From the NCBI RefSeq assembly GCF_009914755.1, contig NC_060929.1: a stretch of DNA of 64,000 bases; one strand, 5' to 3'. Shown here in pieces: positions 1,151-60,364 of this stretch (its first letter is position 1; the number at the start of each line of letters is the position of its first letter). Source of the stretch: the human T2T-CHM13v2.0 reference genome, Homo sapiens. The notes under the pieces were generated by a model that worked only from the letters and a program-made list of their open reading frames with translations, made no database searches and was not told where the DNA came from. Both the position numbers and the translations under genes were made by a program.

Positions 1151-2454
1151 TGGCAGGAATTAATCAGATTGAATATGGGAAGAAACTAGGCCAGGATAGA
1201 ATAGAATAGAACAGATGAGAATGAAATCATAGGATGCTATTGGTGGAAAGGACCTCAGAGATAAGCTGGTACAATAGCTGCCCTCTTCTCTCATTTTACA
1301 GAGAAAAAAACAAAAAACAAAACAAAAAAACAAGAGCCATTGTGGTTCTGTGGAAAGCAAACTAGGTTTCAAAAGACCTGGATTTAAGCCCAACTGGGAC
1401 CCCTGGTTTACTCAGCATCCTCAGACACATCTTTGGCCCGTGTGTCTGAAATTTGTGATTCTAAAATCTCTGGTTGGTCTGTTCTTCTGGTCTTTGGTTT
1501 CAATCAGGGTTTCCTTCCTGGTGATCTGGGCAAGCAGTTTATTGGCTTTTGTGACGGAGTTTTTCTGAGTTTTGGCTAACCTTGTTGATTGCTTCCCTGT
1601 GCTTGGTCTGCAAGCCCATTCCAATTCCCATGCAGTTTTGTGTAAAGATATCTTCATTAAAGACACCTGCTTGGCTTCATTTCGCTTCACAGTGTGTTTC
1701 AATTCATTTTTATGGGCGGAGGCAGCCAGCTGCAATGGATAATCTGGCATCTACTTTAAATGTTGTCTCATGCCCACCTTACAACATTATGACAGTCAAT
1801 TGACATCTTGGGACAGCAGTTTTCCTAAGATTAATGACAATAACAATTATTGTTTTTTTTTCTTATGCTAATTTATTAAACTTTTGTGAGGATCAAATTG
1901 TTAGGGGACATTGACTCTACTTAGTTAACTCACAGCAAAATGGTAAAAACCAGTGGTTACATCTGTTTGGTATTTTTCTACTAGAGTGTTAGTTCCCAGA
2001 GAGTAAGGACTCTGTCTTTGCACAAGAAAACAGGAAAGATGAGTAAAAGGCATCCTAGATTCAGAGTCAGGGGGATTGGCTTCCAGTCCTGGTTTTACCA
2101 CCATTTTACCTTGTGATGCTGGGTAAAGGACTCACTGCCTCCCACACTGACTGGTTTCCTCATCTGTAAAGTGAGGGGCATCGAATAAGATCATCTTTTG
2201 CATTTCCTTTTAACTCTGACAGCTTATGAATTTTGCACTTCTAGTGCTTAGCTCTGTGCCTCGTATATATTAGGGAATTAATAAATGTCTATTAAGCCAA
2301 ATTTAGTTCATTACTATTTATTATTAGTTAAATGTCATTAACTTGTCACATCATTTAGGTTTCTGGAAAGATGACTTTCTTTATTATATTTAGGAAATGT
2401 GGCAGTGATCATTTATATTTAGTGGTTCTGATAATAGGATGGCTGATAACACCA

Positions 2455-2699
2455 GTAGTAGTACTAACGATAAACATCTATAGAGTGCTTATAATGTTCC
2501 AGGCACATACCAGGTATTTTTAAAATGAAATTCTCAACACAACCTTATGAGATAGGTGCAGGCATTAACCTTATTTTACAGATAAGGAAATGCCATGTTA
2601 AATAACTGGACATGTTCACACATGTTCAAAATAACTGACCTTAACACAGTCAGTAGATGGTGGAGCTGGAAGTTGAACCCTGTTCAGTCTGTCTCCAAA
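2455..2699 (-). mobile_element. MIR SINE
   Basis: MIR core in reverse: 'aaccttatgagataggt...ttattttacagataaggaaa...gtagatggtggagctggaagttgaaccc'. Confidence 0.75.
2608..2627. promoter_or_regulatory. Candidate p53-family response element
   Basis: GGACATGTTC ACACATGTTC: two RRRCATGYYY half-sites, zero spacer, one mismatch in total. Confidence 0.5.
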
Positions 2700-2795
2700 T
2701 AGGGTTTCCAGACTCAGCATTTAAAAATAGAGGATCACAAATTAAATATGAATTTCAGATAAACAGTGACTATTTTACTACAAGTATGTCCTATG
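2700..2795. mobile_element. MER53 MITE, half element
   Basis: 'tagggtttccagactcagcatttaaaaatagaggat...aattaaatatgaatttcagataaacag' matches the MER53 left arm. Confidence 0.65.
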
Positions 2796-3670
2796 TGATC
2801 ATACTACCCTCATCTGCCACTCAGGGCAATACATTTTTTTTTTTTTTACCACTGGCTTATGGATTCAGCAGGCAAAATGAGTTCACCTAAAGCAAATTAA
2901 ATGAAAGCAGAACTCTTGTTTCTCACAGGATACTTGGCATTCAATACTATAGGACTGGAAGCCAGGTAGAATTTAGCATTAGGCAGTAAAAAGATATAAT
3001 ATGAAAAGTTTCCATATTAGGAAAATGGCCCCACATGTTATGAAATTTCCTCTTACTCTGAATCTCTTACATCAAATAATTTTGTGTTTTACTTATCTCA
3101 TGAATCTTCTCTCTCCTTCTCAGGGTTTCTGTTTGCTTTAAAAGATGAAACAACTTATAATTTTTTTAAAAAAATTTCAAGTGAAATCTGTAATTACGAA
3201 CGGAGCCAGGATCTCTTGTGAATTGTTTGAGAATGTTGCTTCCCTGTGCTTGAGCTGAAATATCTCATACATCTGTTGCTATGACAATGGGTTCTCGTTA
3301 GTGGGTGAGGTAGACATTTGATCTGTACATTCACAGTGAGGGCTCATGTTCCAGCCTCTTTGTTACGATTCTGAAACTCATGAAATTGGAGAAGTTTCAC
3401 CTTAATCGAAGAAATCGAATTTATAGCAGAAGGGAGTCAAGCCTGGGCCCCTGTCCACTTATTACCACTTTGACTCAGTTTTCTCCACTGTGAAATGGGG
3501 CTGACAACAGTGCCTACTGCATAGGTTTGTGTTAAGAGGATTCATGAAGGATGCAATTAGTGTTATTACTATTAGTTTTATCATTATTATTAAAATAGTC
3601 TATTCCAGGGAACCTTGGTCAAAGCTCATAAAGTTATATTTTTGTTGCCCAGTTAGCCCATCAAAGGGAG

Positions 3671-5176
3671 TGTGTCCGGAATTAGTGGGTTCTTGGTCTC
3701 ACTGACTTCAAGAATGAAGCCGTGGACCCTCATGGTGAGTGTTAACAGCTCTTAAGGTGGCGCGTCTGGAGTTTGTTCCTTCTGATGTTCGGATGTGTTC
3801 GGAGTTTCTTCCTTCTGGTGGGTTCGTAGTCTCGCTGGCTCAGGAGTGAAGCTGCAGACCTTCGCGGTGAGTGTTACGGCTCTTAAGGCAGCGCCTCTGG
3901 AGTTGTTCTTCCTCCCGGTGGGCTCGTGGTCTCGCTGGCTTCAGGAGTGAAGCTGTAGACCTTCGCGGTGAGTGTTATAGCTCATAAAAGCAGTGTGGAC
4001 CCAAAGAGTGAGCAGTAGCAAGATTTATTGCAAAGAGGGAAAGAACAAAGCTTCCACAGTGTGGAAGGGGACCCCAGCGGGTTGCCACTGCTGTCTCGGG
4101 CCTTCTGCTTTTATTCTCTTATCTGGCCCCACCCACATCCTGCTGATTGGTAGAGCCGAGTGGTCTGTTTTGACAGGGCGCTGATTGGTGCATTTACAAT
4201 CCCTGAGCTAGACACAAAGGTTCTCCACTTCCCCACCAGATTAACTAGATACAGAGTGTGGACACAAAGGTTCTCCAAGGCCCCACCAGAGTAGCTAGAT
4301 ACAGAGTGTCGATTGGTGCATTCACAGACCCTGAGCTAGACACAGGGTGCTGATTGATGTATTTACAATCCCTGAGCTAGACATAAAGGTTCTCAAAGGT
4401 CCCACCAAATTAGCTAGATACAGAGTGTCAATTGGTGCATTCACAAACCCTGAGCTAGACACAGGGTGCTGATTGGTGTATTTACAATCCCTGAGCTTGA
4501 CATAAAGGTTCTCCACATCCCCACCAGACTCAGGAGCCCAGCTGGCTTCACCCAGTGGATCCCGCACGGGGGCTGCAGGTGGAGCTGCCTGCCAGTCCCA
4601 CGCCGTGTGCCCGCACTCCTCAGCCCTTGGGTGGTCGATGGGACTGGGCGCCGTGGAGCAGGGGGCGGTGCTCGTTGGGGAGGCTCGGGCCGCACAGGAG
4701 CCCATGGAGTGGGTGGGAAGCTCAGGCATGGCGAGCTGCAGGTCCCGAGCCCTGCTCCGTGGGAAGGCAGCTAAGGCCGGTGAGAAATGGAGTGCAGCGC
4801 TGGTGGGCTGGCACTGCTGGGGGGCCCAGTACACCCTCCACAGCCGCTGGCCTGGGTGCTAAGCCCCTCATTGCCCGGGGCCGGCAGGGCCGGCCGGCTG
4901 CTCCGAGTGCGGGCCTGCCAAGCCCACGCCCACCTGAAACTCCAGCTGGCCCGCAAGCGCCGCGTGCAGCCCCAGTTCCTGCTCACGCCTCTCCCTCCAC
5001 ACCTCCCTGCAAGCTGAGGGAGCCGGCTCTGGCCTTGGCCATCCCAGAAAGGGGCTCCCACAGTGCAGCGGTGGGCTGAAGGGCTCCTCAAGTGCCGCCA
5101 AAGTGGGAGCTCAGGCAGAGGAGGCGCCGAGAGCGAGCGAGGGCTGTGAGGACTGCCAGCACGCTGTCACCTCTCA
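3671..5176 (-). mobile_element. LTR12C solo LTR (ERV9), full length
   Basis: Minus strand begins TGAGAGGTGACAGCGTGCTGGCAG and ends ...TTCCGGACACA; 4-bp TSD GGAG at 3667-3670 and 5177-5180; CpG-rich U3; tandem CCAAT/GATA repeats about 4180-4530. Confidence 0.97.
4106..4530 (-). promoter_or_regulatory. LTR12C U3 enhancer repeats and core promoter, firing leftward
   Basis: Repeated gattgg (CCAAT on minus) and tagata motifs; AATAAAA TATA-like box on minus near 4109-4115; ERV9 LTRs are known NF-Y/GATA-dependent promoters. Confidence 0.7.
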
Positions 5177-5376
5177 GGAGGAGGAAGAGTTAAAACTGAA
5201 AAGCAAAACCTAGAACCAGAAGATGAGGACTCTAGTACATGTTTCCTGATCTGGGTGAGAGAATCAGGGCAACTTGTTTAACTACTTGGAAACTCATTGT
5301 CTTTTCTGTCAAATGGCAATAATAATTAATGTACTCCTCTCCTCCAAAGTTGGTGTAAAGATTAAATGCAATTATA

Positions 5377-14778: not shown

Positions 14779-14898
14779 AAATGGATGCTCTTTTAGATAA
14801 AGGTTTGCTCCCAATAAATATGGAAGCTTTGGGGCCAAAATGGATGCTCTTTTAGATAAAGGTTTACTCCCAATAAATATGGAAGCTTTGGGGCCAAA
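14779..14898. repeat. Tandem duplication, 59-bp unit x2
   Basis: aaatggatgctcttttagataaaggttt[g/a]ctcccaataaatatggaagctttggggcca repeated with one mismatch. Confidence 0.95.
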
Positions 14899-23210: not shown

Positions 23211-24898
23211 TACTTAATCTTGAATTCTGTTACACAATTCTATGAGAAAGGCATTATAATTATCTATTCTTAAAACACTGAGGAGGAGTTATGTAAAGCT
23301 GTCCAAGTTCACAAAGCCAGCAAGTGGCAGAGCAAGACTTAGAAACCAGGCAAGTCTCTCTGGTTCTCCTAGGGTCATTTTCCTTTAATTCTTCCCTGGC
23401 CAGGGAGTGGGGAACTGTGAATGACATAATCATTTCCTCCTGTGCACCCCCCAGGCCAAGGCTGTGCATTGTGGGAAACCTTTAGGGTCCAGAGCAGGGA
23501 AAGAATTTTCCAAAATAAAAGGGAGGATATTACCAAAATAAAGAGGATAAGAGTGAATTCTGAAAAGACAAAAGAACAATAAACACCATAGCCCACTACA
23601 TCTGTTATGTGACAGATGAGGAAATGGATTCTGAAGAGGGACATGTGTTTTTCCAAGTTAAGAGTGATGGGATGTTATAGTCCAGACACAAACCTGGGCA
23701 TCCTGACTCTCTATGCTTACTTTCCCCTCTGGGCCCCAGCTGCCTTGCAAAAGAGAAGAGCATTGTATTTCTGGGGCTGTGAATGAGGGAGAGAGAGAGA
23801 ATGAGAGAGAGAATTCTTCCAACCTGCAAGCTCTCTGTACAAAACCCTCAGTCCATCAGCTGAGTGTGCTGGTCTGAATTAACCATGAAGGGCCTCCAGT
23901 ACACAATTTGAAGAGGCTATTTCCTGGCCCCAATCCTAAAGTGTCTGTAAAAGCATTAATGATTTCCCACTGCTTCCATGGTGACAGCGAGAGAGGGCTG
24001 ACTATCAAGTGCTCATGTGGAAATGGCCCATGGCTCAGGCCCTGTATGCCTGAACAGATACCTGATGCATTGCTGCTCCTGTCACCTACCATTTTAGATG
24101 GGCCCATGCTTCCAAGCATCAAACTAGATTGAATTTCCATAAAAAAGAATTATTCTTCTGTGGCTTGTCAGAAGCCTGCTGAAGTTAGCAGCAAATGTAA
24201 TCTGCTCTATAAATGAGAATTTCCCTTTGATACATGTGGTAGTTGATGAAGACAATGATTCACTTCGAGTGTCCCCATCTCTCCATATCACTCCCTTCTT
24301 CCCACCTCTGCATTCATTTTACTTGCTACTAAGGCAACCCTGTTTGATTTAGATTAGAATGATTTTAGAAGGTTCTAGTACCCCTTTTTATGCTGGGTCT
24401 GAGAATGCCAAGACACCACCATTTCCCCCATAACTTAGTTCCACAGTTGATTTTTGCTAATTCTCTATCAGCAAAGAGCCCTTTTCTGACATTCCCCTGG
24501 GCTCAGAGAATCCTGTCTTGGAAGGAGCACGGGCATATTTGTCTGCAGTGAGGTGAAAAGGGGAGGCCTGGCTGGAAAGCCAGGTGATCTAATTTCTAAT
24601 ACTGGTGCTGCCTCTGCTGTTTTTATTATTTTTACTCTCTGAGCTCTGATCTTCATCTATACAGCAGAGACCTCAACCCCTGTTCAGCACAAAGAACATA
24701 AGAGGTGGGTATCAAGGCACACAGAAAGGATAGGTTTGTCAATTGTATGTGTCAGACTGGCCTTAGGAATTTATGCAATGCCATACTCCTCTCGGTTTGA
24801 GCCAAGAAAAAATTTCCAAAGGACAAAACTTGCAAATATTTTGGTTTGAGGGTTGGGTTCCATGCAATGCTCTCTGGATAATCTACATTATATTGTTA

Positions 24899-25295
24899 TG
24901 CTATGGTTTAAATGTACATGTCCCTCCAAAATGCAAGTGTTGGAACTGAAACCTGAAGGCAATGGTGTTAAGTGGTAGGGCTTCTGGGAAGTGATTAGGC
25001 CGAAAGGTCTCTGTGCTTATGAATTGGATTAATGCCCTTATTAAAAAGGCTTCAGAAAACTGCATAATCCCTTTCATCTTTTCTCCTATGTGAGGACACG
25101 GTATACATTTCCTCAAGAGGATCTAGTGACAAGGCACCATCTTGGAAGCAGAGAATAGCCCTCACTAGACTTTGAACATGCCAATGCCTTGATCTTGGAC
25201 TTCCCAGCCTCCAGAACTGTGAGGAAGAAATTTCTACTGTTTGTAAATTACAAGTCTCAGGTATTTTGTTATAGCAACACAAATGGACTAAGACA
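24899..25295 (+). mobile_element. MaLR solo LTR (MSTD/MLT1A-like)
   Basis: TGCTATGGTTT start, ...aaatggactaagaca end, imperfect TSD tgtta/tatta. Confidence 0.85.
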
Positions 25296-25819
25296 TATTA
25301 TATTCCTCCAGACACAACCTCCAAGGGGAAAGCTTTATGACACCAACTGCCTCAAACACTAATGTTCATTATACCATTTTGAAATTAGGCATTATTTAGC
25401 AGAATTAACTCCCTTTCCTTATTAACATCCAATTCCTTGTGAAAACATCCAGTGAAAAGATTTATTGCTTTGGGTATCTTGTGGGAAGTTTTATTCTGAA
25501 AGTTCAGAGTTGAAGCAGATTCTGACAAAATCACCACGCAGATTTTGAGTAAGAACTCTACTTGTTGTAAAACAGTTTTCAATATGAATAAATCCATATT
25601 CTGTAAAGGAGAACAACATTGTTATAAACTGTAGCTTTATTTTATATGGCAGTACTCATATGAGAGCCTGCCCACAGACATGTTTACTAGGCTGCTGTAT
25701 TGACTTGACATTGATTCACCCAGCATCAAATATCTTCTGAGCACCTCTGTGCGTCAGAACCTGTGCTAGGATCCTGGCCTATAACATTGAACAAGACAGG
25801 GTTCCTATTCATTTGCAGC

Positions 25820-26266
25820 TATGGTTGGATGAGTAATGGGTTCCCAAAGATGTCTGCATCCTAATGCCTAGAATTTGTGAATGTTACCTTATGTAGCAAA
25901 AGGGACTTTGCTGGTGTAACTACGTTAAGAGACAAGGGAGCCATCCTGTATTACCCAGTGGGCCTGATGTAATACAAGGGTCCTTATAAGAGAGATGCAA
26001 AAGGTAAGAGTCATTAGTAAGAGAAATGACAATGGAAGCAAAGATATTAGAATGATTTGAGGAAGAGGTCATGACCGAAGTGATGTAGATGGCTCCTAAA
26101 AGCTGAAAAAGGCAAGGAATTGGATTCTTCCCGGAAGTGCCCAGAAGGAACACAGGCCTGTTGATTTTAGACTTCTGACCTCCAGAACTGTAAATAATAC
26201 ATTTGTGTTGTTTTAAGCCGCTAAGTTTGTGGTAATTTGTCATAGCAGCAATAGGAAACTAATACA
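25820..26266 (+). mobile_element. MaLR solo LTR (MLT1C/D-like)
   Basis: 'cccaaagatgtctgcatcctaat', 'gacttctgacctccagaactgtaa', end 'gcagcaataggaaactaataca'. Confidence 0.85.
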
Positions 26267-26311
26267 GAAGGTTACATTCAAAATGGGGGCAACACATAAT
26301 AGGAAAGTCAA

Positions 26312-26516
26312 TCAGTATTTTTCAGCATTTTGTGGGGGGATGGTTCTCCATGTGCACATCCACCCAGACATCACGGTCACGCAGCCGCATCCATTAACTG
26401 TCATCCTGGCAGCCAGTGGATGAGGCTAAGTGATACTAAACGTCAATCAAAGCTGTCCACACACATTTCCAAACCTCCCCTAAGGTGACACTGTTGCCTT
26501 TGGCTGAGAACCACTG
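26312..26516. mobile_element. MER20B-like hAT-Charlie element
   Basis: cagt... start, 'acacatttccaaacctcccct', '...tgagaaccactg' end. Confidence 0.5.
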
Positions 26517-26559
26517 ACTTGGATTGTGTAGAGTTGAAAGAAGACTGAAATGAAGCAAC

Positions 26560-26890
26560 ATAGCACAGAGAGACTGGAGTCCTGGGGCTATTGTACACTG
26601 TGACCAAAGAAAGCCCTGCCAAAGAGGTGATATCTGAGTTGAGACTGGAGGAGGGAATGGAAGCAGGCCAGTGAAAAATCTATAGAAGGGTGTTACAGGT
26701 GCAGGAGAATGTCATTGGATATAAAGGCCCTGAGAAGGAACATGTATGATGTGTTGGAAGGATAGATAAGGAAGGGCAGATTGCCTGGAGAAGAAGAGTG
26801 GGATGGGAAGTGAGACCAGGGAAGAGGCAGGGCTTTCTGTGTGGGGCTGGCAGGTCATGGTAAGAAGTGTAGCTTTGATTCCAAGAGAGA
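26560..26890 (-). mobile_element. L2 LINE fragment, continuing 25720-25815
   Basis: 'gaggtgatatctgagttgagactgg', 'aaaggccctgagaagg', 'ggtcatggtaagaag...tttgattcc'. Confidence 0.6.
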
Positions 26891-28739
26891 AGCTAGTAAC
26901 TTTAGTAATAAGGCGATCAATGGGGACTGGTGAGGTAGAAAAAAATCAGCTTTGAGAAGTTTGGAAAAATGGAGTATATCTTAGAAAGGCTCATCAAGTT
27001 GTTATGGACAATCAAAATGACCCCCACAGTCAATGCAAGACACATTAATTTCATGTGCTCACTAATAGTTTGCTTTTATGCACAAATTACAATAAATTTC
27101 TAGTAGAGTTAAATTCTAGGGAAAACGGGGTGGAGGGGGATGAATGAAGACAATATCAAAAGGAAAAAGAAAAGATAAAGTAGTTTTCCACTGGATTCTA
27201 TAAAAAAATACAATGTTACTGAAGATATTTGCTTTTATTTTGTAGTGCTTTGCACTCTACAAAATATGTTTTTCATACTTTATATCAATGTAGTTTACCA
27301 AAACCTTGTGAAGTAAGAAAGAGTTGTCTCCATTTTCTGTAGGAAGAACTCCTGCCCTCAAGGAGAGATTAAAAACATATACCCATTAATTAGTGAACAT
27401 GGACCTCATATCTGGTTTTTGACCCTAACTTCAGGGCTATTTTCACTGTGCTGGGGGGCCACCTCTAGGAAAGAATGGAGGGTTGGAAATCCTCTCAACC
27501 AAGGTCTTGACTTTTTATTTTATTTCATTGTTTCCACAGCTTCTTACATGTGTGTACCACTTTGGATTTCCCAAAACACTTTCTCATATAATATATACTT
27601 GATCCATGCAATAGCCCCAGAAGTAGATAGTGCCCTTTTTATGCATGAATAAACCAAGTGTCAGGGCTTATATGAGGTTTTGTGCAGCAAGACTTTTTAT
27701 TCTGAATCCAGTCTTCTTTCTGGTATGTTACACTGCCTCTCAAAGCCTTTTATTGCAGTTTCCTTTCCCTTCATACTTGTTTTACATAACTCTTTTATAC
27801 AGTTTAGGTTTCAGGACTTAATATTGGCACATGTGTTTTTAAGCAGATAATTTGCTGGGCAATGGCTGAAACCTTAGATACATCTAAGGAAGCTAATCTC
27901 TTATTAAATCAATTATATTCTCATTGTTGGTACTAGGTAGAGTAATATGGTGCATTTGATGGAGCAATAACATGCTTCTTTAGCTGCATTAATTCTATAT
28001 AACTTTTGATTGGGCATTATATTGTTTAGTTAGTAGAAAATTAAAGTAAAACCAAATTCCTAGAAGCCACTCATAGCAAACTGTATTTTTCATCCTGCAT
28101 CAGATTTGAAGATGTACCTAATAACGTGACATAAGTCTGCAAAGTCCCCAGGACACTATCAATTCATTCTACTGCCTCCCAAATTCATAGCCAGCCAAGA
28201 TCATCCCAGTAACTACAGAACATAATCATTGTCCTCTTCATTTATACCTTCAATTTGGATCCAACAAAAATTTCTCTTCCCTCATTTCCCATAAAGCCTA
28301 AATTGCTGAAAAAGATATTCATGAATATCTGTCTAAACTTTGCAGCTTACTAAGTGATTACATGGGAGGTAGCAGGCTGATAAGATATTGTCCCCACTTT
28401 ATGGATTAGCACACTGAGTTTCTGGGAAATTGATCTGGCTTGCTTAAGCTGTTGCAACTCTGAAAAAATCACTAGGGCCTGTGAGGGAGGTCCTCTGTCA
28501 TCAAAGCTTGGGCTCATTCTAGTACTCTATGCTGCTAGATTTCTCTTAAGTGAACTGGAAGCATCTTGGCCTGAATTTGAAAGAAGGCAATCCAAGTTTG
28601 ACTTGGCTAAGTCATAATTCTGAATCACTGCTCCCGTGCAGGTAATTCAGGATAGGCAAATGTAATACAGGATGGCAGCAGAAATCAGACAGAACTAGGT
28701 AGGGGAAGAAAATGGACTCTATAGCGAAGCAAGAAAATA

Positions 28740-28990
28740 ATAATGGCAGTCACTCACTATTTTTTGAGCAGTTACATTATGTTAGGCATGATGTTAAACA
28801 TATATGTGTCTTATCTCATTAGGTCTTTATAATTACTCTATGTGGTTGATATTATAATTAACTCCAATATATAAATAAGATATTTCAGGCTTAGAGAATT
28901 TAAGTAGCTTACCCAAACTTAGATAGCAAGCTGGCAAGCTCTGATCTGTCTGACATCCAAGCCTGTGTTCTTTATCATTCTATTACACTT
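28740..28990 (-). mobile_element. MIR SINE
   Basis: 'ttttgagcagttacattatgttaggcatg...caggcttagagaatttaagtagcttaccc...tctgtctgacatccaagcc'. Confidence 0.7.
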
Positions 28991-29747
28991 TCTGATCAGG
29001 CAACAGGAGACAGAGGTCATTTCTTAGGCTCCCTATGCACTCTTCAAGGTTTCTCTTGGTATCCCATGCTCCTTTTCAAGTTCTCAGTGATGCACAGGAT
29101 GGACAGTGATGTCTTCTTTGACCATCTCTCTGGAGGTCCTTATTCAAAGGCATCAGAAGCAGTCCTGGACCTCAAGATGTGCCAAGACATCACAGGGGGT
29201 TTTAGGGTTCCCCCAACCCCCTGCCATAGTTTAACATCACAGCACTTACCCTTTATTGTTGCTCAGGGCAACTGGTCAGCCAGTTAATAAACACATCAAC
29301 TTACTTTGAATTCTTGAGCACAAAGGGAAAGAAGATATAAACACTGACAGATTTACTATGGTCTAATTTAATAAAAATGTCAACAAATAAATGCACATTT
29401 AGCTGGGAAATAAATATCAACAATGAGGCAAGCTGACAGTGGAGTAGGTTGTAAGAAATTAACATTAAATAGTTTGGGATGACAGTAACTATAAAAACAA
29501 AATTGTACCTTGGAGACATCTTGAAACAATTTAACAAATGTGTGCTTTGAACATGAGAGAAGGCGAGTGAATCAAAACCGTTTTGATATAGGACAAGAGC
29601 CCACAGAGCTGTGGAGAGCAATCACTTGCATTCTGTCCCATACATCTGCAAAATGACATTTAGTGCAAACCAAGAACAGTCATCTGAGGATCATTTTCTC
29701 AAATTAAATGGGCTCCACACACCAAATGGAACTCTTGTTAAAGAGTT

Positions 29748-30445
29748 AAAGAAAAAGAATGGAGACATGTCAAAGAGATTTAGAATCCAACCTGATAGAG
29801 CTCCTAATGTCCAAAGCTGGAAGAATTTGAACCCAAAATAAGTAACATGGTGTTGGATTATAACACAAGTATAAAATAAATATAATGATTCATGCTGATA
29901 TAAATAAAAGATTGAGTTAATGAACAAGAAGTAAATAAGAAGGGGAAAAACTTCCTTATAGAAAAATTTCAAATAATATAGGTATATATTATTATTAAGC
30001 TCTAGGAAGTAAAGCTTAATCTCTCACCTTCTTTGACTATAGGCTGAACTTGGTGACTTGTATTCAAAGAAAAGAGTATGGAAAGGGGAAAAAATAGTAA
30101 CTTTGCTGTGGAGAAATCTGGTAAATACCACCATAACAAAATGATCGAGGTTAACATCACCAGCAAAGAGTTATGTTAATATTTTGTACCCCCTGATGTG
30201 ATATGATGAGAAGGGCACTTCATCTCTGTGGCATTCTTCCCCAGAATCATTACCCTAGTCTAATCGTGAGGAAAGCATCAGACAAACACATACTGAGGGC
30301 CACGTTACAAAAATGTAAAACTGACCAGTATTCCTCAAAATGGCCAAGGTCAAGTAAAACAAGGAAAGATTGAGAAACCATTATAGACCAGAGGAGGCTG
30401 GGGAGAGACATTACTACTAAATGCAATGTGGCATCCTTGGTTCTC
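29748..30445 (+). repeat. Arm 1 (derived copy) of 698-bp inverted duplication; L1MC-derived
   Basis: Reverse complement of 32970-33667 with one mismatch (29781 T vs 33634 G); ORF track shows the same peptide MKFFYKEVFP... at 29691..29972(-) and 33443..33760(+). Confidence 0.98.
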
Positions 30446-30744
30446 ACCAAAGGATGTATAAATTCTCACCAAAAATAAATAAATAAGTAACTTCCCCTTG
30501 ACGAGATCTGCCTGATCCTTTCCCAGCACAGCTAAAGTAGAATGGCTTGCTGAGTTTGGCAGAACTGCATTTATCTCCTAGAACTGCAACTTACTAGCTG
30601 TGTGACCTTGAGACATTACCAAACCTCCCTGAGCCTTGACTGTGGAAAAAAGATAACATGTACTGCAAGGTTATTGCGAGGATCCCAAGCACCTACTACA
30701 ATATTTGCTGGGATGCAGAAGCGCAATAACTCTTAATCCCTTAA

Positions 30745-32170
30745 GATATTTATGTGTCCAACAAGTTTTTATTGAGCACCTACTATGTGCCTGCCATGTA
30801 TTAGGCGTTTGGGTTATATCAATGAATGTTTCCTTCTCTGAATCTTTACATGACAGTGTAGGGAAACAGAAGATTAAGGTGATAAATAGGTAAACTGTAT
30901 AACATGTTAGGTTGTATATCAAAAAAAGGGCAAAGCGAGTGTGAGAAGGGTAAGTAGGATTTTAGAGAGGAAGATGGAGATAGGCATCATTGATAAGATG
31001 ATATTTGAGTAGAATTGCCAGATTTAGCAAACAAAAGTGCTGGATACTAGTTAAATTTCAATTTTAGATAAATCACAATTTTTAGTATACATAGTATGTT
31101 CAAGATTGCATGTCCATGTCACTATTTATCTGAAATTCAAATTTCAATGGGTGTCCTTTATTTTTATCTAGTAACCCTACAATTTGAGCCAAGACTAGAA
31201 GTTCTCTGTGTGTATATCTGCAGGAAAAGAGTTATAGGCAGGGAGAATAGCCCACATAAAAGCCCTAGGGGAAGCTTGAGGAACATCGAGGAGGATAACA
31301 TGGATGGAGCAGAGTGAGCCAGGGAGGGAGGGACTAGAGGACAGAGAGGCACCCAAGATCCCAAGAGCAGATCGCATGGGGTCTTGTAAGCACTTCTGCT
31401 TCTACTCTGAGTGAAATGGGGAGCCATTACAGGGTTTTGCGCAAAGAAGAGGCATAATCTAACATATCCTAGCTGCTGGCTGAGAGTTGACTCTAGGAGG
31501 GGCAAATCAGGGACATCAGTAAGGAGTTATCACAGTCATTCAGGCAACAGGTGATGGTGGCTCAGACCAGACGAGGGTGGCAGCCATGGCAGTTAGAAGT
31601 GGTTAGATTCTAGGTATTTAGAAGGAAGAACCAACAAGATTTCCTATGAGTTGTGAGAGAATGAGAAAAGTCAAAGATAACTGCAAAATTTGTGGCTCAA
31701 ACAACTGGAAAAATCGAGTTGCCATGATGGGAAAGCTGTGAGTGGAACAGGAATTTGGGTGGGGGCTGGGGCAATGAGGAAGATTGGTAGTTCCATTTTG
31801 GATATGTATGGTTTGAGAATTCTGATAGACATCCAAGTAGAGATGTCCAGTAAACATTTGGAATGTGAGTCTGGAGTTCAGGAGAGACATCTGGGATGAA
31901 GAAACAAATTCGGGAACATTTTAGCATCTAGATGCCAATGAGACTGGATATCACCAAGGAAGTGACTGTAGAAAGATAAGAGAAACAGGTTTAAGCCCTA
32001 GTTTAAATGTTGGTGAGAGGAGAAAGGAACAGCAAATGAGACTGGGGACTGACCAGTGAAATAGAAGAAAAACCAAGACACCATATTGTCCTGAAGGCCA
32101 ATGAAGAAAATGTATTAAGGAGGAATGAGTTATCAACTGTGTCAAATGCTAACAATAGGTCAAATAAGAT
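30745..32170 (-). mobile_element. L2 LINE, long fragment interrupted by MER53
   Basis: 'tttattgagcacctactatgtgcc' 3' end in reverse, 'tgagtgaaatggggagccatt', 'gacatccaagtagagatgtccag', 'tcaactgtgtcaaatgct'. Confidence 0.85.
31010..31180. mobile_element. MER53 palindromic MITE
   Basis: 'tagaattgccagatttagcaaa...tttatctgaaattcaaattt...tatctagtaacccta'; 8-bp TSD tatttgag/aatttgag. Confidence 0.85.
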
Positions 32171-32720
32171 ATCTATTTATATGTCTGATTTCTAATGGAC
32201 AATGTTTTTGTTTGACCAGTGAAGAGGGGTCAATGGCAAAAATAGTATTGCCATTGTGCCATCTTGGAAAGTCATGTCTCATTAAATTATAATATGATTC
32301 TCCTGGCACTCCCCCTTTCCCTTCTTTCTTTCCCCCCTTGAATACTAGGCTATTGGGAAACACGTTGAGATTCCATATTGTGAAAAATTCTATAAAATAA
32401 AGAAGAAAATAGGACCATTTGCTATGGTCTTTTAGCACAAGTACACATTGATAAGCTTTTTCTTTTTCTTGTGGAAGGACTGTGGGTCAGCCCACCAGAG
32501 AGCATATGAAGCTTCTGCTTCCTCTCATGAGCTGACTGGCTGGGTAGGTGCTTTCATGGATTCATGGCCAGCCTGTTGTAACATTGCTGGTTCCCCACCC
32601 AGGCCCTCACTCTCCAGACAGAGACAAGGTCCTGATGAGTTACCTGGTAGTCTATTCAGAAATCTCCCAGCACCCAGGAGACTGAATTCTCTTGCTCTGA
32701 GCCTCCTCAATAGCTATTAC

Positions 32721-32723
<3 letters not shown>

Positions 32724-32759
<36 letters not shown>
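32724..32759. repeat. (AT)18 microsatellite
   Basis: Direct reading. Confidence 0.95.
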
Positions 32760-32762
<3 letters not shown>

Positions 32763-33667
32763 AAATTTTGGAATAATTTTAGGTTTACAGAAAATTTGCA
32801 AATATAACAGAAGGAGTTTCTGTATATGCCTCACCCAGTTACCCCTAGTGTTAGAATCTCACCTTGCCATGGTAAATTTGTCAACATCATTATATACCTT
32901 TAACTAAACTCAGGCCTTTATTCAGATTTTACCAGATTTCTCCACTACTGTTCTTTTTCTGGCCCAGGAGAGAACCAAGGATGCCACATTGCATTTAGTA
33001 GTAATGTCTCTCCCCAGCCTCCTCTGGTCTATAATGGTTTCTCAATCTTTCCTTGTTTTACTTGACCTTGGCCATTTTGAGGAATACTGGTCAGTTTTAC
33101 ATTTTTGTAACGTGGCCCTCAGTATGTGTTTGTCTGATGCTTTCCTCACGATTAGACTAGGGTAATGATTCTGGGGAAGAATGCCACAGAGATGAAGTGC
33201 CCTTCTCATCATATCACATCAGGGGGTACAAAATATTAACATAACTCTTTGCTGGTGATGTTAACCTCGATCATTTTGTTATGGTGGTATTTACCAGATT
33301 TCTCCACAGCAAAGTTACTATTTTTTCCCCTTTCCATACTCTTTTCTTTGAATACAAGTCACCAAGTTCAGCCTATAGTCAAAGAAGGTGAGAGATTAAG
33401 CTTTACTTCCTAGAGCTTAATAATAATATATACCTATATTATTTGAAATTTTTCTATAAGGAAGTTTTTCCCCTTCTTATTTACTTCTTGTTCATTAACT
33501 CAATCTTTTATTTATATCAGCATGAATCATTATATTTATTTTATACTTGTGTTATAATCCAACACCATGTTACTTATTTTGGGTTCAAATTCTTCCAGCT
33601 TTGGACATTAGGAGCTCTATCAGGTTGGATTCTGAATCTCTTTGACATGTCTCCATTCTTTTTCTTT
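32760..33667 (-). mobile_element. L1MC-type LINE-1 3' fragment; 32970-33667 is arm 2 (donor) of the inverted duplication
   Basis: 'ttttggaataattttaggtttacagaaaatttgcaa' 3' terminus and 'ccacattgcatttagt'; L1MC-like sequence resumes near 34610-34780. Confidence 0.85.
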
Positions 33668-33994
33668 TGTTTTAAAAGTAGAAGTACTTTATGTTTATGG
33701 ATGAACATTTTTTACATGAAATACTGGCACCCATGCTATGTATGGGGGTTTGTTTCCTAAATAAATATGAGTTTTCAATTGAATTCAGCTAGGTTTAGAC
33801 ACAGCCTGAGCTTTAATGCTAGAAAGAACTACTGAGGGAAGCTTCTGGAATCTAATTCTTTGAAGATTTCTCAAAAACAAAAAAGTTTCATACTACCAAA
33901 AGTTGCACATAGGGTACTGGTGGTGGGGCCAGAGATAATGTTCTATGATTTCTGAAATTTTTTCTTCTCATTTTATTTTATGCTATTTCCCCCC

Positions 33995-34595
33995 TTTTAA
34001 TTGATACATAATAATTGTATATATTCATGGGACACATATGCTATTTTTGATACATATAAGATATAATGATCAAATCTGAGTATTTAGCTTACCCATCACC
34101 TCAAACATTTATCATGTATTTGTGTTGGAAACATTTCAAATCTTTTCTTCCAGCTATTTGGAAATAAACTTTAATTCATTATTAACTGTAGTAGTCACCC
34201 TACTGTGCTATTCAACACTAGAACTTACTACTGCTTTCTAACTGGTTGCTTGTGTCCATTAGCCAACCTCTCTTCACCACCCCCCTCCACTTCCTAGACT
34301 CTGGCAGCCACTACTTCAGTCCCTACTTCCATGAAATCAATTTGTTATCTCCCACATATGAGTGAGACCATGTGATATTTGTCTTTCTTTGCCCAGCCCA
34401 TCTCACTCAACATATTGACCTCCATCCAGTTCCATCATGCTCCTGCAAACAACAGGGCTCCTTTCTTATGGCTAAACAGTATTCCACTGTGCATATACAA
34501 GACAATCTTCAACCGTTCATCCGTCCATGGACATCTAGGCCAACTCCATATCCTGGCCACTGTGAAAAGTGATATAATAAACATGGGGGTGCAGG
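33995..34595 (-). mobile_element. L1MA-type LINE-1 3' fragment nested in the L1MC
   Basis: 'ttttaattgatacataataattgtatatattcatggg', 'cccatcacctcaaacatttatcat', 'ctcccacatatgagtgag'. Confidence 0.85.
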
Positions 34596-35519
34596 GTGCA
34601 GGCAGTTTTTGTTTTTAGCATATCTTTAAGACACTGCAAGGTGCTCCAGGCTCATCATGTGTTTTCCCTGGAATCATGGGATCAGCCATTTCTCCATGGG
34701 GCCGTGCTTCTTTTTTACTGGAAAATCATAGAAAAAGCAAGCAAGATCTGGGCAATGGGTACCCAAAGGCATATTACTGGGTCAAAAATACTCTCCCAGG
34801 AGGGCTCATGAACCACCTGCACCACTTGTGTATTACCCAGGGGTTGCCAGCAGGGGTCACCAAGTGACTGGGTTGGGGGTGTGATTGTATTGACAAATTG
34901 GGGTTAAGGACACCACCACAATCTTCTGGTTGGAGCCCACCTTACAAGCAGGCAGAAGATACTAGTATGGTTTGAGAGGCAACAGTAAGTCCCCTCTTTC
35001 CTCACCATTCCAAAATATCTTCCTTTCCCTTCATAAGATTCCTGAAATTCCTGCATTGGAGTTTTAGCCTTTTAGTCTTTTAAAAATAGCTTCCGATTAA
35101 AATAAAACCAGACTTTGATTAAAAATTATCTTTGATTCCCGTTTAAAATGTAGATAAATCACTTGCCTCCAGTGGCCTCAAATTTAATCAGAGTTGGATC
35201 ATAGTATTCATCTAGAGTTTAGGCTTTGTCCTGCAAGTCGTCAGGGAGCCCTGAATATTTTTGGCATGATCTGCAATGCATTTTTAGGGTGATAATGTTG
35301 TGGTTCATATGTATATGTGTGTGTGTGTGGTGTGTATGTACGTAGGTGTGTAAATATGTATATGTATATGTGCCTGACACCTAGTGAGAGCTATAGAGTA
35401 TTTGCTATAATTAATGTCATTAGTAGTAGTGGTAACAGAACATTCTAACCATAGACGGCTCTCTCCAAACTTCCTGCTGTTAATTTGTGACACAGTGTAA
35501 GAACAAGTGTGTATATATA

Positions 35520-35720
35520 CGCACATACTTCCATTGACTTCTCACACCCTATGAGGTTAGTACTATTTTTATTTCATTTTACAGGTGGAAAAATTGGGGC
35601 ACAGCAGGGAAATGTAACTTGTCCAAGGTCACACAGCTACTAAATGGAAAAGACAAGATTTAAAGCCAGGCAGTCTGGCTCCAGGTTTCTGGTTCTTAAC
35701 TATGCTCTGTGCTACTCATT
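35520..35720 (-). mobile_element. MIR SINE
   Basis: 'ccctatgaggttagtactatt...aacttgtccaaggtcacacagctactaaatgg...aggcagtctggctcc'. Confidence 0.8.
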
Positions 35721-37013
35721 TGAATGTCTGTTCTCCTCTGCCTTCTTCAAGAGAATGCTCCCAAAATGCCACCTAGCCTCATCCCTGGCTTTCATGTCTC
35801 CAGAATTTCATATTTCAAGATCCTCCCTTACCAAGATTATTTTTCACAGGCTATCCCCAGCACTGCCCTATCCCCATGAGCCCTTAGGGTCTTTCTCATT
35901 TTCTTTATCTTCTCTTTCCCCACTTATCACTGCCTTAGTGGTAAATGAGTTGATATGATTAAATACCTTTCTTTTGGGGCAGGGGATGGGAGGGGATATT
36001 TTGTTTTCAAAATAAGGCTACTAGTATAACCCAAAGGAATACATTCTAATGACAAAACAGATGTCAATAAAAGACAAGTGATAATAATAATAATCAGCAA
36101 CTTATCTTGGCTTAATGTAAACACTCAATAAATGCAGCAGTTAGCATTTATTGAGTGACTGCTTTGTGCCTGATATTGTACTAAGTACTTCACGTAGATA
36201 CTTTCTTTTGATTCACACAGTAATCCTAGGAGTTTAGCACCATTATTATCTCTCTCTACAGAGAGAACTTGAGAAGTTTCCCCAAGGTCACACAGCATGG
36301 AAAAGCTGGAATATGATTGACAATGGTGAGTCTGTAAGAGGCTTCACCCTTGAACTTGATAAAGTACTCACTGTAGTATACCTCAAATGATACCACACCC
36401 ACAGACCCAATTTCATCTAGTTCGGTGCTGTGCAGAAGCTGTTTGTAGAGAAGGAACACTTAGAAATTGTATTTCCTATCTATTATGGATCAGTAGTTCT
36501 ACAAAATACATTAACAATGAATTATATGATCACATTCTTGGATGTTATGCCCACGTCAACTTGTTATCCAAGTCTCTCAATGGTTTCTCCTAGTTTTAAA
36601 CTTACCACAGTAGGTTGGTAACCAGCAGGTCATGGACTGGCATCAATCTGTGAATCATTCTCTGAATGGCACTGGTCTAATAGTATCCTTTTCACAAATG
36701 TGATTCACTAAATGTATGTCTAGATATAACTGAATTTTTATTTCTTTGTAAAATTTGTGTTAGACTCTTTGTTCCAACTGTTGGTTATTAAACCCATAGA
36801 CATTAGACATTAGGTAGACCTGGCACCAGACAAACCTGGATTTAAATCTAATCCTGCCTGTTCTACCTGCATGGCTTTGAGTAGCTTAACCTCTCTTAGA
36901 CTGTTTTATTGTCAATAAAATGAGGATAATAATATTTACCCAGATGGATTATTGTGAGAATCCATTGAGACAGGGATGACTGGTACATGGGAGACACTTA
37001 ATAGATTTTGTTA

Positions 37014-37440
<427 letters not shown>

Positions 37441-38089
37441 GATGCAAATCTGATATGTATGTTGGGTGGCTGGTAGACCTCCATAAATTATTAACAAATG
37501 TCCGAATGACTGACCACTCTCCAACCAATTCTGACTGTGGGGGAAATTTTCCATTTACACCACCTCCCCTGAAGACTCAGGAATCAGGGATGGGGACAGC
37601 CTGTGTACTTGAAAGGAGAGGCTCTCTTTGAGCAGCAGTTTCCTATGTGGCAAAGCAATTTTATTAGACTTCAGGGGGTCGGGGCTCCTCTGACCCTGCC
37701 CGCTCCCTGGAGCCGGCTGCCCCAGGCTTACCCAGGGAGGACACAGCTCTGAGCTGCCACATGGTGGATGAAGATTGATGTCAAAATATTAATTTAGAGT
37801 CAGCACTGCTGATGCAAGCTAAACATGTGCTTCTTTTAGCCTGCGGAGTCAATTGGATTGTAATTCTTCTCAGTTCTCAGCTCAGGAGTGGAAGAGTGTG
37901 TCGTTCCTGGAGGGGCATGTTGGCAGGTGCCTCTGAGATCTGAAAGGTTAACGCAGACTGCAAGTGGGGGCTATCTTGTTGGGGGATCGCCAGCTAATTT
38001 TCTTGAGATTATAGGATCAGGGAAAGGCAGAGCTGGACAGGGTTTTAGGGATCAACCTTTCTTTTAAAATTAGAGGAAAAGGGCTGATT

Positions 38090-38250
38090 AAGAGGTCAGG
38101 CCTTGGAGTCAGGAGGACACAGGTCACCTCCTGGTTGTGCCACTTATGAGCAGTGTGCTGTTAGGCAAGTGACTTTACCTCTCTGAACCTCAGTGTTCTC
38201 ATCTGTAAAATGGGGATAATAAAAATGTCCACATCATAGATTATGCCTTG
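38090..38250 (+). mobile_element. MIR SINE
   Basis: 'aggcaagtgactttacctctctgaacctcagtgttctcatctgtaaaatggggataat'. Confidence 0.85.
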
Positions 38251-39519
38251 TAGACTAGTCTCATACGTACACATATCATTCATTCTTTATTTCTTAAGGT
38301 TTCAAATAAAGTCTTTCTCACAAGACTGATTTATGCCTTTATTCATCACCTGTTTTGCGTCTGTAATAGATGCGTGGATTGCAACAGAGAGCAAAAGCTG
38401 ACATGCTGTCTGTCCCCATGGAGGCTGCAGTTTGGTGGGAGAGACAGACCCTGACCGAGTCATCCCAAGAAACAATGTAAATACAACAATGATATGTTGG
38501 CAGAGGAACAGTGTCAGGTACTGTGAAAGGGCATCATGGGGGAATCTGATTTGGTTTAGAAGGCCAAGACAGGCTTTCCTAAAAAAGCAACAGCTGACCT
38601 AAGATCTGATGCACCAGTAGAGGTTTAGGCAAATGGGGGAGAGCAGGGCAGTCTCAGCTGAGGGAAGACCCTGCGTTGCGTCTCCGTGGTCCCTGCTGAG
38701 AGAAGAGCAGTGTGCACAATGCTGGGGGAAGTGGTAGGTGACGAGGCTGGGGGAGTAGCAGAAGCCAGGCCTGGGGGTGGCCCTGGTCAGGATTGGTTTT
38801 GTTCCTCCCAAGAGTAAGTGGGTGACTGAGTTGACTGAAGATCAGTCTGGCAGCAGGGAGGGAGGCAGAGTCTGTGTTCACGAGCCTGTGTTCCCAGGAG
38901 TTCTTTTGTCCTAGTCTGAGCCCAGGCTCTGCCCTCTGCTTTTGTTTCCCTTATCTATTGGGTTCACTCTTTCCTCTGTTGTGGCAGCACCGGCCTCCCC
39001 TTGGTCTCCAGCCCCGCAGAATCTGACCTGCAATTCTCCTTGCTGCTGATTCAGCTCTCCCTGGCTCCTTTCCCTCCATCCTTCCTTCTGTCATCAAACG
39101 CACCTCTCTTTGCTGTGGCTTCATTGGTCCCTGTAGATGTGTTTTTTCCTCTCTGCCCTCCTGTCATCTTTCCTCTGACCGGTCATCAGAGAGATTTCCT
39201 GCTACTGGGGATAAGCGAGTCCTGTGCCAATGAGGACAGCCACCACTCAGTGTGTAATGTTTTAAAATTTTACAAAGCCCTTTTGCGCTTGTTCCTCTAA
39301 TAGCTCCTCATTATCATCCCATAAAATAGTAGGACAAGAATTATTGTCCCCATTTGCTAGATAAGAAAAGGATTTCAGAAAAGTTGGGAGACTCGAGCTT
39401 GCTCACACAGCTGGTGTGTTTTGAGCTGGGAGCCCACCCTGGGTCAGGTTCTGTAACTCCAAACCCCTTGATCTTCTTTGTTTTTTTTTTTTTTTTAACA
39501 TGGTATCCTAGGACTTATT

Positions 39520-57274: not shown

Positions 57275-58358
57275 TTTCTTTTCTTTTTTCTTTTCTTTTC
57301 TTTTTAATTATACTTTAAGTTCTAGGGTACATGTGCACAATGTGCAGGTTTGTTACATATGTATACATGTGCCATGTTGGTGTGCTGCACCCATTAACTT
57401 GTCATTTACAGTAGGTATATCTCCTAATGCTATCCCTCCTCCCTCCCCCCTCCCCCCACCCTACGACAGGCCCTGGTGTGTGATGTTCCCCTTCCTGTGT
57501 CCAAGTGTTCTCATTGTTCAATTCTCACCTATGAGTGAGAATATGCGGTGTTTGGTTTTCTGTCCTTGTGATAGTTTGCTGAGAATGATGGTTTCCAGCT
57601 TCATCCATGTCCTTACAAAGGACATGAACTCATCCTTTTTTATGTTTGCATAGTATTCCATGGTGTATATATGCCACATTTTCTTAATCCAGTCTATCAT
57701 TGATGGACATTTGGGTTGGTTCCAAGTCTTTGCTATTGTGAATAGTGCTGCAATGAACATACGTGTGCATGTGTCTTTATAGCAGCATGATTTATAATCC
57801 TTTGGGTATATACCCAGTAATGGGATGGCTGGGTCAAATGGTATTTCTAGTTCTAGATCCTTGAGGAATCGCCACACTGTCTTCCACAATGGTTAAACTA
57901 GTTTACAGTCCCACCAACAGTGTAAAAGTGTTCCTATTTCTCCACATCCTCTCCAGCACCTGTTGTTTCCTGACTTTTTGATGATTGCCATTCTAACTGG
58001 TGTGAGATGATATCTCATTGTGGTTTTGATTTGCATTTCTCTGATGGCCAGTGATGATGAGCATTTTTTCATGTTGTCTGTTGGCTGCATAAATGTCTTC
58101 TTTTGAGAAGTGTCTGTTCATATCCTTCACCCACTTTTTGATGGGTTTTTTTTTTTTCTTGTAAATTTGTTTGAGTTCTTTGTAGATTCTGGATATTAGC
58201 CCTTTGTCAGATGAGTGGATTGCAAATATTTTCTCCCATTGTGTAGGTTGCCTGTTCCCTCTGATGGTAGTTTCTTTTGCTGTGCAGAAGCTCTTTAGTT
58301 TAATTAGATCCCATTTGTCAATTTTGGTTTTTGTTGCCCTTGCTTTTGGTGTTTTAGA
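57275..58358 (-). mobile_element. L1PA (about PA3-PA5) 5'-truncated LINE-1: 3'UTR plus ORF2 C-terminus
   Basis: 'ttatactttaagttctagggtacatgtgcacaa' terminus; ORFs 57518..57889 and 57893..58090 encode the ORF2p C-terminus ([28 protein letters not shown]). Confidence 0.97.
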
Positions 58359-59892: not shown

Positions 59893-60364
59893 ATCCTTCA
59901 CCCACTTTTTGATGGAGTTGTTTGTTTTTTTCTTGTAAATTTGTTGAAGTTCTTTGTAGATTCTGGATATTAGCCCTTTGTCATATGGATAGATTGCAAA
60001 CATTTTCTCCCATTCTGTAGGTTGCCTGTTCATTATGATGATAGTTTCTTTTGCTGTGCAGAAGCTCTTTAGTTAAATTAGATCCCATTTGTCAATTTTG
60101 GCTTTTGTTGCAATTGTTTTTGGTATTTTAGTCAGGAAGTCTTTGCTCATGCGTATGTCCTGAATGGTATTGCCTAGGTTTTCTTCTGGGGTTTTTATGG
60201 TTTTAGTTCTAATGTTTAAGTCTTTAATCCATCTTGAGTTAATTTTGTATAAGATGTAAGGAAGGGGTCCAGTTTCAGTTTTCTGCATATGGCTAGCCGG
60301 TTTTCCCAATACCATTTATTAAATAGGGAATCCTCCTCCCCCCCCCCCCCAAAAAAAAAAGAAA
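59893..60364 (-). mobile_element. Internal L1PA ORF2 fragment (antisense) with + strand C13/A-rich tail
   Basis: ORF 60073..60315 ([11 protein letters not shown]...[10 protein letters not shown]); 11-bp TSD aagaaatttgt at 59882-59892 and 60365-60375. Confidence 0.9.

What the first reader, a model, noticed from the sequence alone, without database searches (positions are those of the whole stretch)
29720..30473. Both junctions of the derived arm carry fold-back templated fillers inside a 7-bp CACCAAA repeat
Seen, left: CACCAAA (29720-29726), then a 21-bp filler containing a hairpin AACTCTT-gtta-AAGAGTT (29730-29747) and a tandem GTTAAAGA x2 running into the arm. Seen, right: the arm end CATCCTTGGT (30432-30441) folds back on filler ACCAAAGGATG (30446-30456, one bulge), TTCTCACCAAA occurs twice (30441-30451, 30463-30473), and CACCAAA closes at 30467-30473. 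No poly(A) tail lies inside the repeat. Known: short snap-back and direct-repeat templated inserts are signatures of polymerase theta-mediated end joining and of MMBIR/FoSTeS template switching. Inference: the empty allele reads ...ggctccacaCACCAAAaataaataaataagtaac...
Basis: partly seen in the sequence, partly recalled or inferred. Interest (0 to 1): 0.72.

Follow-up and report, generated by a model that had tools for sequence, protein, structure and literature searches.

The report
Local inverted duplication with stitched junctions
A 698-base piece of an old repeat was recently copied backwards into a spot 2.5 kb away, and both joins carry short folded-back or repeated copies of neighbouring DNA, likely scars of error-prone break repair; this is a clear but ordinary example of a known kind of human structural variant, outside any annotated gene.

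Summary
Observation confirmed with corrections. Window 29748-30445 (698 bp) is an inverted copy of 32970-33667 with one mismatch. The left copy is the derived one: 18 of 18 distant paralogs continue into the right copy's flank. Both 21-bp fillers hold more local repeat structure than chance: 12 and 3 of 2017 background sites match them, and the right hairpin has z -3.3 while the source does not fold. Corrections: the arm ends at 30445, not 30441, and a third CACCAAA (30445-30451) makes the bracket ambiguous (747 vs 724/725 bp). Best model: a nearby inverted copy joined into a break by repeated snap-back and loop-out synthesis (polymerase-theta-like). Replication template switching remains a close rival. 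The class is known: inverted duplications under 1 kb inserted within 5 kb (Sudmant 2015). One mismatch suggests human-lineage age. I did not find the locus in the six supplement sets searched, with incomplete coverage. A hint that both fillers grew outward from the insert's own 3' ends is weak.

The parts
29720..29726 (+). CACCAAA, left copy; likely native target sequence
   Evidence: positional chance 224 of 200,000; native status inferred
29727..29747 (.). Left filler, 21 bp: hairpin 29730-29747, tandem 8-mer 29737-29752 running into the arm, and a 6-mer 29725-29730 equal to arm 29758-29763
   Evidence: (z -2.07, 5 of 200 shuffles)
29748..30445 (+). Derived arm, 698 bp, inverted copy of 32970-33667; one mismatch at 29781; fragment of an old dispersed repeat (L1MC-like is a recalled label, no call)
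30446..30466 (+). Right filler, 21 bp: fold-back on the arm end (30446-30456), 6 nt partly unexplained (30457-30462), start of a re-copy of 30441-30451
   Evidence: (z -3.27, 1 of 200 shuffles)
30445..30451 (+).
30463..30473 (+). Second TTCTCACCAAA; its last 7 nt are the right CACCAAA, the likely annealing microhomology
   Evidence: role inferred
30474..32969 (.). Spacer between the arms; likely in the original orientation, since both fillers lie on the same copy
   Evidence: inference
32970..33667 (-). Source arm, inside an old repeat copy that continues to about 32760 and, after about 940 bp of other sequence, at 34609-34790
   Evidence: 18 of 18; 8 of 11

Best explanation
This is a recent local inverted duplication: 698 bp of an old repeat at 32970-33667 is copied, reversed, at 29748-30445, and it was likely joined into a DNA break by polymerase-theta-like end joining that made both 21-bp fillers through repeated short copying steps. 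Shown: the copy, its direction, the intact source, the repeat structure of the fillers. Inferred, right join (top strand): the arm end is extended by ACCAAA (copied from the target 7-mer, or snap-back with one slip), snaps back to copy AAGGATG, adds about 6 nt, re-copies the new junction 11-mer and anneals by its last 7 nt. Inferred, left join (bottom strand): the arm end gains 3 nt, re-copies an 8-mer, snaps back for 7 nt, copies a 6-mer of the arm start and anneals by 2 bp. Fill-in would leave CACCAAA on both sides, so the empty allele would join 29726 to 30474 (747 bp shorter). The event is likely human-lineage and likely without function.
For: Arms have 697 of 698 bases identical and there is no third close copy among the 40 matches scored in the genome. 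18 of 18 paralogs continue into the source flank (scores 48-184; shuffle maxima 24-38), while the derived flank scores 22-38 against shuffle maxima 26-41. 8 of 11 paralog upstream parts map right of the source arm. The hairpins are absent from the source ends (z 0.94 and -0.57). With templates on the growing strand only and matches >=5 nt, each filler parses in 8 steps read from arm to flank; 1 of 150 shuffles does as well. The extra A of the bulge is what copying the target 7-mer would give (sequence, inference). Complex inserts of overlapping nearby copies are the described product of multi-round SD-MMEJ (PMC2943611 passages). Size and distance fit the 1000 Genomes 'Inverted Dup' class (PMC4617611 passage). 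One mismatch against 8.4 expected at 1.2% divergence (a recalled human-chimpanzee value) gives P 0.002.
Against: No empty allele was seen. Against real genomic background the 8-step parse is reached by 43 of 1436 strand-sites (3%), weaker than against shuffles; at a 6-nt threshold the right filler needs 14 steps, reached by 188 of 1436. About 3 nt on the left and 2-6 nt on the right stay untemplated. The strand polarity is not significant by itself: asymmetry as large occurs at 274 and 195 of 718 sites, it reverses on the left if native flank extends to 29734 or beyond, and it vanishes on the right at the 5- and 6-nt thresholds when flank and source templates are allowed. Published authors read this class as replicative (PMC12350158 passage). 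Gene conversion between arms could hide a greater age.
Confidence: 0.6

Rival explanations
1. Same duplication and same empty allele, but made by one stalled replication fork that switched template several times (FoSTeS/MMBIR): target to source in reverse, back to target, with short aborted copies at each switch.
For: The source is 2.5 kb away and intact; return to the target by a 7-bp microhomology fits. [quoted passage not shown] The right filler reads well as top-strand synthesis.
Against: Read on the top strand the left filler needs 12-16 steps with 8-15 untemplated nt (growing-strand templates only), against 8-10 steps on the bottom strand. This asymmetry is weak against background.
Confidence: 0.22
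2. Shorter insert: 30452/30455-30473 is native, the target held two CACCAAA copies about 22 bp apart, and the empty allele is 724 or 725 bp shorter.
For: 29720-29730 matches 30445-30454 at 10 of 11 with one gap; fewer synthesis steps are needed; the snap-back would create the microhomology for rejoining, as in single-step SD-MMEJ.
Confidence: 0.07
3. Insertion with a deletion at the site: much of the apparent filler is native flank (for example the left flank runs to 29740, or the right filler runs on to 30491) and the CACCAAA pair is chance.
For: With native sequence to 29740, the left join needs only 2 top-strand steps. An 11-mer at 30481-30491 matches arm 29836-29846, which 70 of 2487 background zones do, or 31 of 596 AT-matched zones. 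Deletions often accompany complex events.
Against: The 7-mer sits at the edge of the explained filler on both sides (224 of 200,000), and the 8-mer tandem would need a further 3-nt coincidence.
Confidence: 0.08
4. RNA-templated or L1-mediated insertion of a transcript fragment, or an assembly artefact.
For: The arm is a piece of a LINE-like repeat (label recalled); a 7-bp flanking repeat resembles a target-site duplication; class 2 templated insertions may be cDNA patches.
Against: No poly(A); the arm stops about 200 bp short of where the paralog alignments end; the source is 2.5 kb away, not distant; paralogs are only about 70% alike, so the family is long dead. Structured fillers and one mismatch are not what a collapsed or duplicated assembly gives.
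Confidence: 0.03

Closest known systems
'Inverted Dup' class of human structural variants (Sudmant 2015, PMC4617611; Schloissnig 2025, PMC12350158; passages read)
   Same: Duplicated stretch under 1 kb, inserted in reverse within 5 kb of the other copy, no retrotransposition marks, short microhomology at joins.
   Different: Those calls are polymorphic against a reference; polymorphism here is untested and the copy may be fixed. The passages read do not resolve multi-step fillers at both joins.
Synthesis-dependent MMEJ / polymerase-theta end joining (Yu and McVey 2010, PMC2943611; Khodaverdian 2017, PMC5728401; passages read)
   Same: Snap-back (inverted) and loop-out (direct) repeat motifs within 30 bp of the join, short primers, multi-round complex inserts.
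   Different: Defined at induced breaks in Drosophila with known pre-break sequence and mutants; here there are two joins around a 698-bp copy, with no known pre-break allele and no genetics.
MMBIR templated insertions in the human germline (Osia 2021, PMC8421209; passages read)
   Same: Reverse-complement copy of a nearby template, several templates in one event, present as germline variants.
   Different: That tool seeks templates within 100 bp; here the main template is 698 bp long and 2.5 kb away.
Templated sequence insertion polymorphisms, class 1 and class 2 (PMC5110952; passages read)
   Same: Copied, not excised, donor; class 2 has microhomology and added bases; class 1 has a flanking duplication of 5 bp or more.
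   Different: The donor is local, not distant; a 7-bp flanking repeat without poly(A) fits neither class cleanly.

Membership tests
Inverted Dup (Sudmant 2015) | Duplicated stretch under 1 kb in inverted orientation | tested here: met
   698 bp, 1 mismatch
Inverted Dup (Sudmant 2015) | Inserted within 5 kb of the other copy, source intact | tested here: met
   2.5 kb; source continuous with paralogs
Inverted Dup (Sudmant 2015) | Not associated with retrotransposition | tested here: met
   no poly(A), longest A run 6
Inverted Dup (Sudmant 2015) | Segregates in humans (an empty allele exists) | tested here: inconclusive
   no row found in the supplement searches; files were cut or mismatched, and hg19/hg38 positions were estimated from recalled offsets
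SD-MMEJ / TMEJ junction | Repeat motif >=4 bp ending within 30 bp of the join, with primer and microhomology >=1 bp (criteria) | tested here: met
   7-11 bp motifs at both joins; the criterion is lenient
SD-MMEJ / TMEJ junction | Filler absent from the pre-break allele | not testable with these tools
   no outgroup or second haplotype; site flanks have no spanning paralog
SD-MMEJ / TMEJ junction | Dependence on polymerase theta | not testable with these tools
   historical germline event
FoSTeS/MMBIR | All pieces explicable as one nascent strand switching templates at microhomologies | tested here: inconclusive
   top-strand parse of the left filler costs more than the bottom-strand parse, but this depends on the boundary
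L1-mediated insertion / class 1 TSIP | Poly(A) tail of 10-40 nt inside the target-site duplication | tested here: not met
L1-mediated insertion / class 1 TSIP | Target-site duplication of 5 bp or more | tested here: inconclusive
   7-bp repeat present, but the empty site is unseen and three copies exist
Class 2 TSIP | Donor in a distant genomic region | tested here: not met
   donor 2.5 kb away

The most novel reading that the evidence does not exclude
Both fillers were grown outward from the insert's own two 3' ends, on opposite strands, and then annealed to complementary 7-nt overhangs of a staggered break. If this holds across the class, the commonest small human inversion-type variant forms by fragment capture, and filler polarity at both joins is a sequence test for it.
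Probability: 0.25. Interest if true: 0.55.

Novelty: new member of a known kind. Interest (0 to 1): 0.3.

Why it matters
As a single intergenic event 115 kb before SGCD, with no annotated gene or enhancer over it, it matters little. It is a clean natural specimen: source, direction and both joins are readable, and one ape or human empty allele would settle the junction model. The formation route of short local inverted duplications is only suggested in the passages read ('a common mechanism', 'replicative origin'), so a two-junction polarity test over the several hundred catalogued cases could separate end-joining capture from fork switching. The near-identical 0.7-kb arms could also mediate inversion of the 2.5-kb spacer (untested).

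Tried and rejected
Reconstructing the empty site from paralogs failed: 29400-29747 has only the self match, and 30460-30760 has five short matches, all 130 nt or more from the junction. Catalogue look-ups found no row for this locus: Schloissnig 2025 xlsx by CHM13 prefix (file cut at about 4 million characters); Huddleston 2017 tables including CHM1/CHM13 duplicative insertions; Quan 2021 Table S2 (file cut; 8 rows nearest SGCD, none of this size or place); Chaisson 2019; Sudmant 2015 PDF (its tables zip was too large to read); the files held for PMC13629690 showed gene-prediction material and no inversion table. The hg19 (about 154.99 Mb) and hg38 (about 155.61 Mb) positions rest on recalled offsets, so these blanks are weak; at most they hint that the references also carry the copy. 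Text searches listed no paper on this locus; I read listings only for most hits. Several key catalogues were not held and preprint supplements were not seen; any of them may list the site. Rejected or set aside: pre-existing hairpins at the source ends as the cause (source ends do not fold); a distant template for either filler (best match within 24500-38500 is 10 nt or less outside the arm and the local repeats); the 11-mer match between the right flank and the arm (3-5% chance); filler polarity as firm evidence; spacer inversion in this assembly (both fillers lie on one copy).

Full report
1. Observation. They flank one arm of a long inverted repeat. Ungapped comparison puts the arm at 29748-30445, 698 bp, the reverse complement of 32970-33667 with one mismatch at 29781/33634. 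Between the outer two copies lie a 21-bp left filler, the arm and a 21-bp right filler, 747 bp with one 7-mer. No poly(A) lies inside.

2. Chance. In 61-nt windows, the left combination (direct repeat >=8, inverted >=7) occurs at 12 of 2017 background sites and the right one (>=11, >=7) at 3 of 2017, or 0 of 1930 without low-complexity sites; thresholds are post hoc. The right fold-back has z -3.27 (1 of 200 shuffles) and the left -2.07 (5 of 200); the matching source ends give 0.94 and -0.57. A 10-pair fold-back with one bulge at a fixed boundary occurs at 88 of 63,800 positions. The structure at the two joins together is beyond chance. The 7-mer alone is not (288 of 3000), but its placement at the edge of both fillers is (224 of 200,000).

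3. Which copy is new. The arm belongs to an old dispersed repeat with paralogs 67-77% alike; the only near-identical match among 40 scored, apart from the arm itself, is the second arm. The L1MC-like label is recalled and comes from no call. I used the 18 best of 38 non-self matches. All 18 continue into the right copy's inner flank (scores 48-184 against shuffle maxima 24-38); the left copy's flank scores 22-38, with 3 of 18 slightly above their shuffle maximum (alignments). Neither copy's immediate outer 210 bp matches the paralogs, but 8 of 11 paralog upstream parts map at 34609-34790, right of the source. The right copy is therefore native and the left derived, and the spacer is likely not inverted here.

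4. Age. One mismatch in 698 bp gives 0.14% (95% interval 0.004-0.8%); at a recalled 1.2% human-chimpanzee divergence 8.4 are expected, P(<=1) 0.002. With recalled rates this is about 0.7-1.4 million years (0.02-8). Conversion between arms could hide greater age. Four of five alignable paralogs share the source base, so the change is likely in the new copy.

5. Mechanism. Right: ACCAAA from the target 7-mer or a slipped snap-back, AAGGATG by snap-back, about 6 nt partly untemplated, re-copy of the junction 11-mer, annealing at the 7-mer. Left: 3 added nt, 8-mer re-copy, 7-nt snap-back, a 6-mer from the arm start, 2-bp annealing. This is the pattern described for multi-round synthesis-dependent MMEJ (PMC2943611, passages; criteria in PMC5728401, passages). 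Against this: in real background 43 of 1436 strand-sites parse in <=8 steps; at a 6-nt threshold the right filler is unremarkable; strand asymmetry of this size is common (274 and 195 of 718) and flips on the left if native sequence extends to 29734 or further; with flank and source templates allowed the right join shows no polarity at the 5- and 6-nt thresholds. I commit to end joining with repeated short synthesis (0.6) over single-fork switching (0.22), and treat polarity as a lead.

6. Empty allele. Joining 29726 to 30474 needs one 5.6% coincidence (11,253 of 200,000). The 724/725-bp versions need a native 7-mer recurrence (954 of 200,000) and about four lucky stem pairs. A deletion version needs the 7-mer placement to be luck. 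It is untested: the genome search has no relatives, the flanks have no spanning paralog, and no catalogue row was found (files cut or mismatched, older-build positions from recalled offsets).

7. What is known. Sudmant 2015 (PMC4617611, passages; supplement PDF passages): 54% of 229 characterised inversion sites were inverted duplications, nearly all under 1 kb within 5 kb of the other copy, and 53% of complex sites had a local template. Schloissnig 2025 (PMC12350158, passages): 277 inverted duplications, median 284 bp, mostly 1-15 bp microhomology, replicative origin suggested. Osia 2021 (PMC8421209, passages): germline inserts from up to five templates. PMC5110952 (passages): the TSIP classes fit less well. 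Also seen: Porubsky preprint (passages), PMC13629690 (abstract and section 4), Huddleston 2017 (abstract and passages), Quan 2021 (passages), Mao preprint (passages), Chaisson 2019 (supplement search only). Nine text searches listed nothing on this locus or on two-ended filler polarity in this class; the library lacks most subscription papers, and unseen supplements may list the site.

8. Verdict. Real, well preserved and ordinary in kind: a new member of a known class, outside annotated genes and enhancers. Interest 0.3. The boldest open reading, capture of a two-ended copy by polymerase-theta end joining, has probability about 0.25 and would merit about 0.55 if shown across the class.

Noticed in passing
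window 29781 / 33634: The single mismatch is C to T in a TCA context, 33 nt from the left join, likely in the new copy (4 of 5 alignable paralogs have C). It could have arisen during repair on single-stranded DNA, which would make the event younger still; one base cannot show this.
   Followed up: partly
window 33657-33678: The source's outer breakpoint (33667) lies in a T-rich tract, 5-6 bp from where paralog alignment stops and other sequence interrupts the old repeat, and 6 bp from a TTTT/AA site (L1 endonuclease consensus as given). May be chance.
   Followed up: partly
   Followed up: no
window 30481-30491 vs 29836-29846; 30481-30510 vs 30091-30120: The right flank matches arm interior sequence by an exact 11-mer and a 70% 30-mer; the 11-mer is expected at 3-5% of zones.
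   Followed up: yes
window 30446-32969: A 2.5-kb spacer between arms 99.9% alike is a candidate substrate for inversion or conversion; not found in the inversion lists searched.
   Followed up: partly
window 14779-14896: Head-to-tail duplication of 59 bp, 98% identical: another young duplication.
   Followed up: no
window 58147-58357 and 59921-60131: Direct repeat of 211 bp, 91% identical, 1.8 kb apart, inside two masked repeat stretches.
   Followed up: no
window 3682-5210: Masked cluster with internal tandem units of 87-119 bp, LTR-like by recall, next to the annotated enhancer 2056-3257.
   Followed up: no
window 33694-33954: A separate repeat (two matches at 75-77% elsewhere in the genome) lies within the sequence that interrupts the source element.
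   Followed up: partly
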